Shown: positions 28,053-31,000, counted from the stretch's first letter. The stretch: DNA of 64,000 nt from Scenedesmus sp. PABB004 (GCA_014905635.1 JABVCE010000020.1:248001-312000); one strand, 5' to 3'. The notes: generated from the letters alone by a model not told the origin. Translations and numbers: made by a program.

Positions 28053-31000
28053 TCAGGGCGAGGGCGACGGCGGGCCCACGACGGTGTCGTTTTTCTTCGT
28101 GCAGCCGCCGGTGACGTCGCCCCACTTGCCGGGGCCGTCGCAGTTGACCTGTGGGCTGCCCAAATAGCCGTCGTCGCAATCGGCGGAGCAGCCGCCGTCC
28201 ACCGTCACCGAGCCCGACGTGCAGGTGGTGACCCACTTGCTGTTCGCCGGGGGCGGCGGGATGGCCGCGCCCGAGCACACCGCCCGGCAGTTGCTCGTGA
28301 CCTCGTCCCAGAGGCCGCCGGTGAGGCACGTCGCAACCACGGGGCCCTCGTAGCCCGGGTTGCACGACGCCGTGCAGTTGCTGCCGACCGGGGTGCTCGC
28401 GCACGCAAACTTGCCGTTGGTGATGCTGCTGCTGGGGTTGCCCGAGCAGCCTGGCGCGCGCGGGGCGGGGCGGCAGGCGCGAGCGTCGGCGGTGCAGCGT
28501 GGCGCGGCGCGGACCGCGGCGCGCGCGGCTGCAGCGCGCGGCGCTGCAGCGGGCGCGGCGCTGCAGCGGGCGCGGCGGGCGGCTCACTCGTGCGGGACTG
28601 CACGCAGGTTCCGTTCACGATGCCGCTCCACGTGCCGTTGCGCAGGCAGGTGATGTAGGGCGGGAGGGGGTTGGCAATGAACCCGCTGTTGCAGGTGGAG
28701 AAGCAGTCGTCGCCGGCCTTGTTGTTGCCGGCGCAGTTGAAGGCGGCGTTGGGGGCGCTGGGCGGGGTACCGCACACAGCGGACGACGCGACGCAGCTGC
28801 CCTTGGGCGCGGCCCACTTGTCGTCGTTGCCGCACGACGAAGACGGCTTGGACGGCGAGCCTGCAAAGCCGTCGTTGCACTCGGCGGTGCACGTCTGGCC
28901 GCCGCCGGTGATGTCCCCGCAGTCCCACTTGGCGTTGGGCACGGCGGGCGGGTTGCCCTTGCACGCTGCGCGCGGCGGGGCGGCGGGTCAGCGCGCGCCC
29001 TGCGTGGCGCGGGCCGGCGGCCGCACGCGCGGGGCAGCCGTCGTGCCATGGCGCGCGCCTCACCACCCGGCGCGTCGAAGCAGCTGCCGGTAACGTCCCA
29101 CGTGTCGGCCCCGATGCAGAAGGCCGAGGGCCCGCCGGCGAAGCCGCTGTTGCACTTGCCGAGGCAAATGTTTCCGACCGCCGTGGTCGCGCAGTTGCCC
29201 CACGCGCCGTTGGCGAGCGCGGGCAGGTCGGTGCCGAGGCAGCCTGCGGCGGCGAGGCGCGGCGCGAGGGTCGGCAGCAGCACCGGGCGCGGGCGCCGGC
29301 GCGCGCTGCGCCGCGCGGCCGGGCGCGGCGCGTCGCGCAGCGCAGGGCGACCGCCGCGCACCCTCTGCGCACACGCCCTGCACCGGGCTCCAGGTGCCGG
29401 CAAAGCACGTGGCCACGGGCGACCCGGCGGGAGAGCCGAAGAAGCCGCGGGGGCAGGTGCCGTTGCAGGTGCTGAGGTGGGGCGTGGAGGCAGGGCAATT
29501 GAACGTCGCGCCCGTGGGAGGGTTGGGCGGGGTGCCAGTGCAGGCTGCGCGGGGGCGGGGGCGGGGACGGGAGCAGCACGCAGGGTGGGCGGCGGCTCGT
29601 GCGACGCAGCATGCGCGCGTGCAGCGCAGCGCAGCGCAGGCTGCGCCGGGAGCAGGCGTGCGCGCGCGGCGTCGCTCACGGTCTGTCGACTCCTTGCACG
29701 CGCCCGTGGTGGCCGTGAACGAGCCGTCGGCGTTGCAGGTGGTCTTGGGCGCGCCCTTGAACCCCAGGTCGCACTTGCCGGTGCAGTCCTGGCCGCGCAG
29801 GACCTCGAAGCAGTCCTCGCCGGGCCAGGCGCCGTTGGCGGGCTGGTCGGGGAGCTTCTTGCCGGAGCAGCCTGCGCGCGCGCGGGCGCCGGGCGCGGCA
29901 TGAGCGTGGGCGCGCGCTGCCACCGCCGCGGCAGCCTCAGCGACGCCCAAGCGCGAGCGTGGCGCACCTGGCTTGCAGCTGCCCTTGACCGCCGACCAAA
30001 CGCCGCCCTCGTCGCACGTGATGCTGACGTCGCCAACAAGGCCGGCGTCGCAGACCGCCTCGCACGTGCTGCCGACAGCGGACTGGCCGCCGCCGCACGA
30101 AAAGCTGCCACCGGTGATGGTGGGCGGCGCCCCGCACACTGCGGCGCACAGCGAGGCGGCGAGGCGTCAGCGCGTGGCTCGGCCGCACCCCGGGCTCGGG
30201 TGGCGAACGTAGAGCTAGCAGCCCCGCGCCGTGGCGCACCTGGGATGGGTGTGCAGTCGCCCGTGACGTTGGACCACTGGCCGCCCAGGCACGTGGAGAA
30301 GAACGGCGTGGGCAGGTAGCCCGTGCCGCACGTGGACTGGCAGAGGCTGTTGAAGGGCGTGTACTTGCAGCTGCTGGGCCAGGTCTGGTCGACCGGCGGG
30401 TCCGGCAGCGCGGAGCCAAGGCAGACTGCGGTCGGTTGGGCGCGAGCGGCGCGGTGAGCGACGCGGCGAGCAGCACGAAGAGCACGCGCCGGAGCCAGCC
30501 GCGCGCGCGCCGACATCGCAGCCGCGCCGCGCCGCCCCCGCGCTCGCCGCCGGGGCTCACCGAACTGGGTCCAGAGGTCAGAGTTGAACGGCTGCACGCC
30601 CGGCTCGCCCGGGTCGGGCTTCCTGCCAAAGCAGATGGCGCCAATCGCGGGCGGGTTCTCGCTGGTGTCGGCAACGCCCGTCACGACGCCGACGGGCGAG
30701 TCGCCCGAGCAGGCGCCGCCCGGGTACGCGGTGAGGGGGACGCCGTTGTCGTCGAAGCTGCCAGTGAAGCCGTTGCAGCACCAGTCCGCGCCCGCCGAGT
30801 ACGCACCCTGCACCTGCTCCAGGGACGCCAGCAGGGTGCCGCCGTCGGAGGTCATGTTCCTGCAGGCCCCGGCGGCCTCAAACTGGGTCTTGAAGCGCTC
30901 GCCGCACAGCGCGTAGACCTCGGGGATGTCCGACGACGCGGCGGCTGCGCGGCGCGGCAGGGGCGGGCGCGGTCGCGCGCGCGGGTGGGCGCGGGGCCGC

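What the first reader, a model, noticed from the sequence alone, without database searches (positions are those of the whole stretch)
30560..30945. Link (hyaluronan-binding-type) module in a green alga
Seen: one phase-1 exon encoding EVYALCGERFKTQFEAAGAC..TLLASLEQVQGAYSAGADWCCNGF..AYP..C..GV..AICFGRKP..QPFNSDLW. Established: this fits the Link consensus (T..EA..AC....LAT..QL..A...G...C..GW....YP..CY) of CD44, TSG-6 and the lecticans, a mainly chordate domain, and some chloroviruses coat infected algae with hyaluronan. The CxGxKP..PFN..W ending resembles, from memory and unverified, Link proteins of giant DNA viruses. Inference: a possibly horizontally acquired glycan sensor.
Basis: partly seen in the sequence, partly recalled or inferred. 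Interest (0 to 1): 0.75.

Follow-up and report, generated by a model that had tools for sequence, protein, structure and literature searches.

The report
Giant-virus-type Link module in alga
A green alga has three secreted proteins carrying the Link module, the sugar-binding fold that animals use to grip hyaluronan, but in the version typical of giant viruses and without most of the hyaluronan-gripping residues, so it probably binds something else.

Summary
Confirmed, on the minus strand. Exon 30561-30944 encodes a true but divergent Link (Xlink) module: all four Link cysteines are kept. Pfam gives E 5e-5 but 24 bits, under the cut-off of 27; two paralogous exons pass it. The top four fold matches are TSG-6, aggrecan and LYVE-1. 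It is exon 3 of a 10-exon gene (Scenedesmus sp. PABB004) for a secreted 792-aa protein: signal peptide, basic 8-Cys module, Link, nine Sushi-like units. A metatranscriptome shows it spliced. It carries the non-animal signature (GADWC, CxGxKP..PFN..W tail) of a family with at least 580 hits in viral contigs and almost none in prokaryote genomes. The algal copies do not nest among viral-contig rows in trees, so a viral donor is plausible but not shown. Hyaluronan binding is unlikely: 5 of 8 TSG-6 contact residues are absent and the domain is acidic. All three copies lie head-to-head with a secreted Cys-repeat gene, two of them with chitin-binding CBM14 domains. Best reading: a secreted recognition protein for a non-hyaluronan ligand, perhaps an amino-sugar polymer.

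The parts
30561..30944 (-). Exon 3: Link (Xlink) module of the non-animal type with C-terminal CxGxKP..PFN..W extension; four Link cysteines plus an extra pair (C9, C52 of the 123-aa domain) absent from both paralogues; net charge about -10
31479..31554 (-). Exon 1: start codon and signal peptide (the only strongly hydrophobic stretch of the protein)
   Evidence: the 10-exon model equals NCBI protein P0002
31060..31290 (-). Exon 2: small beta-rich 8-cysteine module, strongly basic (net +14; +14 and +11 in the paralogues); three copies found in the genome, each before a Link exon; no named fold (best Z 2.3)
28053..30425 (-). Exons 4-10 (30425-30240, 30138-29968, 29871-29680, 29544-29362, 29243-29064, 28965-28588, 28450-28053): nine Sushi/CCP-like units of about 60 aa, 54 cysteines (6 per unit), all introns phase 1; ends in PPSPSP and stop, no transmembrane segment
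   Evidence: (Sushi 69.2 bits, cut-off 20.7)
30139..30239 (-). Intron 4, seen spliced out in a freshwater metatranscriptome contig
31479..33312 (.). Inverted repeat (arms 31479-32156 and 32635-33312, 678 nt, 13 differences, 12 of them in the signal-peptide end) that gives the Link gene and its partner nearly the same upstream region and first exon
33237..40960 (+). Head-to-head partner gene: large secreted protein with an unassigned N-terminal part, Cys-rich repeats and C-terminal chitin-binding peritrophin-A (CBM14) domains; a relative lies head-to-head with each of the two Link paralogues on contig C4. Exon structure not fully built
   Evidence: (CBM14 32.7 bits, cut-off 22.1)

Best explanation
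A secreted, rod-like extracellular recognition protein. Shown: after the signal peptide come a basic 8-Cys module and a Link module, then nine Sushi-like units; there is no membrane anchor; the gene is spliced; the genome has three copies, each head-to-head with a secreted Cys-repeat gene, two of which carry CBM14 domains. Inferred: the Sushi array is a spacer that holds the Link head out from the wall or mucilage. The basic module may tether it to anionic wall polymers. The Link groove binds a carbohydrate other than hyaluronan, most likely a neutral or cationic amino-sugar polymer (chitin or chitosan type, from the alga's own wall or from a parasite), alongside the co-expressed chitin-binding partner. 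The module belongs to the non-animal Link family that is mostly a surface protein of giant viruses. It entered this gene as a phase 1-1 exon, probably from a giant virus or via another microbial eukaryote (about even odds).
For: Link identity. Architecture and secretion. Splicing. Non-animal type: 72 of 74 phmmer hits carry Xlink, and none shows V-set, CUB or Lectin_C in the Pfam lists printed (best 5 per protein). CxGxKP is in 184 of 193 domains, while profile matches to animal Link chains stop at the last Cys. At least 580 confirmed stretches in viral contigs against 2 in 185,579 prokaryote genomes. 78 of 79 viral Link ORFs have a hydrophobic stretch before the domain, and a Link protein is in the PkV RF02 virion proteome (PMC11953307). 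Not hyaluronan: TSG-6 contacts (PMC3937638) H45, K63, F70, Y78 and R81 have no counterpart; net charge -10, -6, -4 in the three copies. Partner: 3 of 3 copies paired; 3 of 4 CBM14 matches in the genome lie in these partners.
Against: No ligand was tested and a shared fold shows no function. The chitin idea rests on gene neighbourhood only; the pair may simply have been duplicated as a block, and the third partner shows no CBM14. No chitin-synthase-type (PF03142) match was found in the genome (exon-by-exon search, weak). An independent viral profile beats Pfam only modestly (25.9-34.1 against 24 bits). The algal rows do not nest among viral-contig rows. The window copy is the most divergent of the three and lacks the Trp that both paralogues have after the second cysteine, so it may have lost or changed its site. 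Expression evidence is two contigs of depth 2 from one study.
Confidence: 0.5

Rival explanations
1. Structural matrix or wall protein in which the Link module binds protein (the partner, itself, or its own basic N-terminal module) and no glycan, as many C-type-lectin-fold domains do.
For: Acidic Link next to a strongly basic module in all three copies; conserved pairing with a secreted partner; loss of groove aromatics and an extra cysteine pair near the groove in this copy (nearness inferred); many fold neighbours, such as invasin, intimin and NK receptors, bind proteins (their ligands recalled).
Against: The groove disulfide and the Tyr/Phe-Pro equal to TSG-6 Y59-P60 are kept; viral relatives are often fused to lectin-type domains (ricin B, F5/8 type C, tectonin, chitin-binding, laminin G), which favours a glycan role for the family.
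Confidence: 0.28
2. Antiviral decoy: a captured viral attachment domain, secreted to occupy the surface receptor used by giant-virus Link proteins.
For: Viral Link proteins are surface-type and one is in a virion; one sits beside PolB, TFIIS and PhoH on a viral contig; Nucleocytoviricota endogenous elements are reported in 18 Scenedesmaceae genomes (PMC13315243).
Against: No virus of this alga with a Link protein was identified; the best identity to any non-algal domain is 39-42%; no capsid gene was found in this genome (weak negative); the ligand of viral Link proteins is itself unknown.
Confidence: 0.1
3. One reading: a hyaluronan sensor that detects the hyaluronan coat made during chlorovirus infection.
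For: It is a Link fold and most solved Link modules bind hyaluronan; chloroviruses encode hyaluronan synthase (PMC12383584 introduction); Y59 is kept and an Arg lies near the K11 position.
Against: 5 of 8 TSG-6 side-chain contacts are absent in any register, H45 is Asp, and the domain has pI about 4; CD44's C-R-Y-G reads C-C-N-G here; no chlorovirus among the 9 census rows named 'virus'; even Ciona Link proteins are reported not to bind hyaluronan (PMC12383584 discussion); no anchor or signalling part.
Confidence: 0.07

Closest known systems
Animal Link-module proteins (TSG-6, aggrecan G1, LYVE-1, CD44; Pfam PF00193)
   Same: Fold (Z 9.5, 9.4, 9.0, 8.5, 6.6), four cysteines, LA(T/S)xxQ helix, GW/GF and YP motifs, secretion; lecticans and SUSD5 also combine Link with Sushi (PMC12383584).
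   Different: Only 17-31% identity in the structural alignments; extra CxGxKP..PFN..W tail; longer hairpin before YP and shorter loop after it; acidic; most hyaluronan contacts missing; no Ig, CUB or C-type lectin domain; nine 6-Cys Sushi-like units.
Giant-virus (Nucleocytoviricota) Link-domain proteins, e.g. PkV RF02 ORF195, Phaeocystis globosa virus, Chrysochromulina ericina virus
   Same: GA[DE]WC motif, EV[FY] start, CxGxKP and PFN..W tail; top two structure matches in the ESM Atlas are Nucleocytoviricota Xlink clusters (TM under 0.5, lead only).
   Different: Viral proteins are mostly an N-terminal hydrophobic anchor plus 1-4 Link domains without introns; the algal one is soluble, spliced, GC3 0.95 like its other exons, and has a hairpin insertion seen in only a few relatives. 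Named viral proteins were not compared directly.
Unassigned metagenomic Link proteins P0058, P0064, P0022, P0027 (two fused to RCC1/BLIP-II-like repeats) and P0043 (two Links plus about 30 TSP1 repeats)
   Same: The first four share the hairpin insertion and are the nearest group in two of three trees (83 SH-aLRT; 96/60) and in the same 10-row group in the third.
   Different: Origin unknown (no names; P0058 and P0027 not found in viral contigs, P0022 not found in metagenome contigs); no Sushi array.
SVEP1 / CSMD1 (the NCBI labels of these proteins)
   Same: Many Sushi repeats.
   Different: The labels come from the Sushi array only; no vWA, pentraxin or CUB domain was found.

Membership tests
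Link module superfamily (PF00193) | Four cysteines in C1-C4, C2-C3 spacing | tested here: met
   C23, C51, C74, C100 align with columns conserved in 182-185 of 190 relatives and with TSG-6, CD44 and aggrecan through the family profile; the bonds themselves were not measured
Link module superfamily (PF00193) | Pfam gathering score of 27 bits | tested here: inconclusive
   Window exon 24 bits (E 4.7e-5), below; paralogous exons 34 and 30 bits in the genome search; as whole proteins P0004 28.6, P0007 23.1, P0002 22.8
Link module superfamily (PF00193) | Compact C-type-lectin-like fold, two helices and two small sheets | tested here: met
   Model pLDDT 84, pTM 0.79; top 4 VIA-align hits are Link modules (Z 8.5-9.5, rmsd 2.6-4.0, 88-97 aligned), next non-Link 7.6; Foldseek top 8 are Link chains but none at E<=0.001
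Hyaladherins (hyaluronan-binding Link proteins) | TSG-6 contact set K11, Y12, H45, Y59, K63, F70, Y78, R81 | tested here: not met
   By alignment: Y59 kept; K11 and Y12 ambiguous; H45 is Asp; no Lys between YP and C74, Gly at F70, and no Tyr, Arg or Lys between C74 and C100
Hyaladherins (hyaluronan-binding Link proteins) | Measured hyaluronan binding | not testable with these tools
   needs a binding assay
Non-animal (giant-virus-type) Link family | Trp before the second cysteine and CxGxKP tail with PF[NS]..W | tested here: met
   Present in all three algal copies; Trp in 186 of 190 and CxGxKP in 184 of 193 domains; PFN..W-like motif within 80 aa in 63 of 85 viral-contig domains
Gene captured from a giant virus | Nested among viral sequences in a rooted tree | tested here: inconclusive
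   Not nested among viral-contig rows; nearest rows are of unknown origin; about 110 columns, no animal outgroup, viral rows chosen by short patterns
Gene captured from a giant virus | Lies in an endogenous viral element or shows foreign composition | tested here: not met
   Neighbours are TatC and a spliced secreted gene; GC3 0.95, within the 0.88-0.98 of the other exons; an old transfer would look like this too
Sushi/CCP repeats (PF00084) | Pfam score over cut-off; about 60-aa Cys-rich units with a Trp near the last cysteine | tested here: met
   69.2 bits against 20.7 for the protein; 4 units pass E 0.001 alone; units have 6 Cys, canonical ones 4 (recalled)

The most novel reading that the evidence does not exclude
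The Link module is not an animal invention. It is a mobile surface-recognition domain shared by giant viruses and microbial eukaryotes, whose older ligand is an amino-sugar polymer of the chitin type. This alga domesticated the viral form as a phase 1-1 exon and built a lectican-like Link plus Sushi protein independently of animals, co-regulated with a chitin-binding partner as a secreted recognition pair against parasites or for wall assembly. Hyaluronan binding would be a later animal specialisation.
Probability: 0.2. Interest if true: 0.82.

Novelty: new variant of a known kind. Interest (0 to 1): 0.58.

Why it matters
Link modules are treated as a chordate hyaluronan-binding device. A 2025 census of 14,579 Pfam hits (PMC12383584) lists a few invertebrates, viruses, bacteria and metagenomes, and names no alga in the Results text I read. 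An intron-bearing, expressed, three-copy Link gene in a culturable green alga extends the domain to the green lineage. It also gives a soluble protein for asking what the large giant-virus Link family binds and what Link modules bound before hyaluronan. It is a case of Link plus Sushi architecture arising without animals, or of a virion-surface domain being taken over by a host.

Tried and rejected
Plus-strand frames at the coordinates: no Link sequence. Contaminant or viral insert: rejected; the exon has normal splice sites, host-like GC3 and TatC next door. Transfer from an animal: unlikely; aggrecan scores 10-11 bits per domain against 45-48 for single-domain non-animal hits, and animal chains lack the tail. 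Word-index searches with the exon or residues 26-232 returned only the protein itself and missed even the paralogues, so they say nothing about absence in other algae. The search with alignment A1 gave 41 long proteins, none named as animal or as another alga. ESM Atlas feature search: no hit at 0.9 or more. The three-paralogue alignment found nothing in metagenome contigs (599 stretches, 0 confirmed) and 2 loci in viral contigs. Attempts to place the nearest relatives failed: P0022 matched only RCC1-like parts of other contigs, P0058 and P0027 nothing, P0003 only distant GVMAG hits. The 52.6-58.8 bit score from profile A2 is circular, because its rows were found with the algal query; one search gives the independent scores. 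Alignment A1 put the algal rows out of register at YP; the model's strands (54-59, 65-68) and alignments A3 and favour Y69-P70. The N-terminal module gave no fold match (best Z 2.3). PF03142 and PF04451 found nothing in the genome (weak negatives). PHROGs: no family. The partner's Cys repeat matches a viral ORF 0.9 kb from a Link gene only weakly (E 2.7e-4 in 3,441 sequences; reversed controls none). No complex prediction was run. Literature: 10 searches showed no paper on an algal Link module; the strain's genome paper is not held; bioRxiv supplements are closed and subscription papers are missing.

Full report
Observation. The finding lies on the minus strand. Splice-site reading gave a 10-exon gene from 31554 to 28053, all nine introns GT..AG and phase 1, coding 792 residues with one stop. 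The same 792 residues are in NCBI as 'Svep1 [Scenedesmus sp. PABB004]'. A freshwater metatranscriptome (1 run listed, 1 laid) gave 3 records. One joins exactly across intron 4, one lies inside the Link exon, both without mismatches and at depth 2, and the third is two chance pieces of about 20 nt. The gene is therefore spliced in nature, on thin evidence.

Is it a Link module? Yes, a divergent one. Pfam Xlink scores the exon at E 4.7e-5, 24 bits, under the cut-off of 27. The genome holds two more copies on contig C4, 54% and 46% identical, which score 34 and 30 bits. phmmer over 1.84 billion representatives gave 74 hits including the three algal proteins; 72 of 74 match Xlink and 69 of 74 pass the cut-off. 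A profile of 32 of these sequences matches 17 PDB sequences, all aggrecan, TSG-6, LYVE-1 or CD44; a profile of the three algal copies alone also matches only those (17 at E<=1). The AlphaFold model (pLDDT 84, residues 77-85 under 50) has TSG-6, aggrecan and two LYVE-1 chains as its best 4 of 48,161 chains (Z 9.5, 9.4, 9.0, 8.5), ahead of Bd2740 at 7.6 and the C-type lectins. Foldseek ranks Link chains first but none reaches E 0.001; in the viral library a herpesvirus UL45 and a Tupanvirus Link protein lead, both weak.

The protein. A signal peptide is followed by an 8-cysteine beta module of net charge +14 with no named fold, the Link module (net -10), and nine Sushi-like units with 54 cysteines. 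There is no later hydrophobic stretch. The paralogues P0004 and P0007 have the same order and the same phase-1 limits around the N-terminal and Link exons, at 44-54% identity. The long tail of annotated P0007 looks like a gene-model fusion, since the DNA reads to a stop right after the last Sushi unit.

Which kind of Link? The non-animal kind. None of the 71 non-algal hits shows V-set, CUB or C-type lectin domains in the Pfam lists printed (best 5 per protein). They are mostly a hydrophobic N-terminus plus one to four Links, or fusions to F5/8, ricin B, tectonin, laminin G, RCC1-like or TSP1 domains. I looked up 25 of the 71 and none has a taxon name. The same alignment found 2 of 52 stretches in 185,579 prokaryote genomes. 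One is a 16-kb MAG contig whose protein resembles the viral ones (misbinning inferred), the other a 29-residue match. The family signature, Trp before the second cysteine (186 of 190) and CxGxKP (184 of 193), is in all three algal copies, and profile matches to animal chains stop at the last cysteine. 78 of 79 viral Link ORFs have a hydrophobic stretch before the domain. One contig carries the gene among PolB, TFIIS and PhoH. A Link protein, ORF195, is listed in the virion proteome of PkV RF02 (PMC11953307; passages and table read). Against overstatement: profiles built from viral-contig domains alone score the algal domain 34.1 bits (full), 30.8 (core) and 25.9 (GVMAG core), only modestly above Pfam's 24, though far above 1000 shuffles (maximum 6.5-7.7).

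Origin. Three trees were built. The first used 122 of 193 domains after removing rows over 62% identical. The second (65 rows) also dropped 17 mostly long-branch rows and two thirds of the unassigned rest; the third (68 rows) dropped 11 more and added 14 from further viral loci. The algal copies form one clade (100/94, 100/99). Their nearest group is P0058, P0064, P0022 and P0027 in two trees (83; 96/60), and in the third all lie in one 10-row group (81/85). None of these joins is firmly supported, and no viral-contig row lies inside. Those four share with the alga a longer hairpin before YP (13 residues against 7-9 in 144 of 167 measured), and I could not place them. P0043, a signal-peptide protein with two Links and about 30 TSP1 repeats, looks eukaryotic (inference). 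So capture from a giant virus is plausible, and Nucleocytoviricota elements are reported in 18 Scenedesmaceae genomes (PMC13315243; passages read), but donor and direction are open and no animal outgroup was included. The locus is not an endogenous virus: GC3 is 0.95 like the other exons and TatC lies next door.

Ligand. TSG-6 grips hyaluronan with K11, Y12, H45, Y59, K63, F70, Y78, R81 and the C47-C68 bond (PMC3937638; passages read). Anchoring on the cysteines: Y59 is kept as Y69; H45 is Asp, as in most of the family (D or E in 143 of 190); K63, F70, Y78 and R81 have no possible counterpart; K11 and Y12 are ambiguous because an Arg and a Phe lie within a residue or two. CD44's C-R-Y-G (R78, Y79; numbering recalled) reads C-C-N-G here and C-T-W-G, C-D-W-G in the paralogues. 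The extra C9 and C52 may form a bond at the groove (inference; no coordinates were available). The domains have pI 4.0-4.6, a poor fit to a polyanion. The mussel paper states that Ciona Link proteins do not bind hyaluronan (PMC12383584; first part of Results, Discussion and passages read). Its Table S1 has no match for Scenedesmus, Tetradesmus, Chlamydomonas, Monoraphidium, Raphidocelis or Edaphochlamys and no chlorovirus among 9 rows named 'virus' (term searches only).

Context. The gene is head-to-head with a large secreted gene (33237-40960), and a 678-nt inverted repeat gives both nearly the same upstream region and first exon. The partner ends in CBM14 chitin-binding domains (32.7 bits, cut-off 22.1). 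Its Cys-repeat exon has 3 matches in the genome, each beside one of the three Link genes. On C4 the start codons face apart at 502 and 522 bp, and one partner is collinear over most of its length. Three of 4 CBM14 matches in the genome (a lower bound) fall in the two long partners; the third partner is short and shows none. This suggests a co-regulated secreted pair, though block duplication alone could keep it. Chitin-containing walls are described for one group of chlorophytes (PMC10762512; passages read), and zoosporic parasites of Scenedesmus appear in the search listing only.

Verdict. A real Link module of the giant-virus type in a secreted Link-Sushi protein of a green alga: new variant of a known kind. 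Most likely it recognises a non-hyaluronan carbohydrate (0.5), with an amino-sugar polymer the leading guess. Rivals are a protein-binding matrix role (0.28), a viral decoy (0.1) and a hyaluronan sensor (0.07). Ten literature searches, plus term searches of PMC13315243 and its six supplements, showed no report of an algal Link module. The scan's own notes held nothing similar. Interest 0.58.

Noticed in passing
window 31479-33312: 678-nt inverted repeat, 98% identical, that includes both first exons, so two unrelated secreted proteins have almost the same signal peptide and upstream DNA; a second 78-nt pair overlaps it (32158-32235 / 32577-32654). Recent conversion or an assembly artefact; the C4 pairs show no such repeat by eye.
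   Followed up: partly
window 33237-40960 (+); G000:C4 597206-about 608600 (+): Large secreted protein with an N-terminal part of no Pfam family, Cys-rich repeats and several CBM14-like domains; CBM14 in a green alga may deserve its own look. One more CBM14 match lies on contig C77.
   Followed up: partly
L069:9278-10036 (-); L017 and L107 downstream ORF: Viral ORFs near Link genes carry a Cys-rich repeat (LCY..C..GY, SYDRG.G) weakly similar to the partner's repeats, with no Pfam or PHROG family; the partner may share a second module with giant viruses.
   Followed up: partly
G000:C4 about 622870 onward (P0007): The NCBI model P0007 (1306 aa) seems to fuse the third Link-Sushi gene to a downstream LRR-like gene; the DNA has a stop after the last Sushi unit.
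   Followed up: partly
G000:C4 about 616000-617000: A partial second copy of the 5' part of the short partner gene and its upstream region lies just downstream of it.
   Followed up: no
P0043: 2868-aa metagenomic protein with a signal peptide, two viral-type Link modules and about 30 TSP1 repeats; probably a second microbial eukaryote with this domain.
   Followed up: partly
L091 (CAZYEM010000070.1): The one strong 'bacterial' Link hit sits on a 16-kb contig of a Bacteroides MAG and resembles viral proteins; possibly a misbinned giant-virus contig, which may also explain some bacterial Xlink records.
   Followed up: no
window about 25500-27300 (+): TatC gene, tail-to-tail with the Link gene.
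   Followed up: partly
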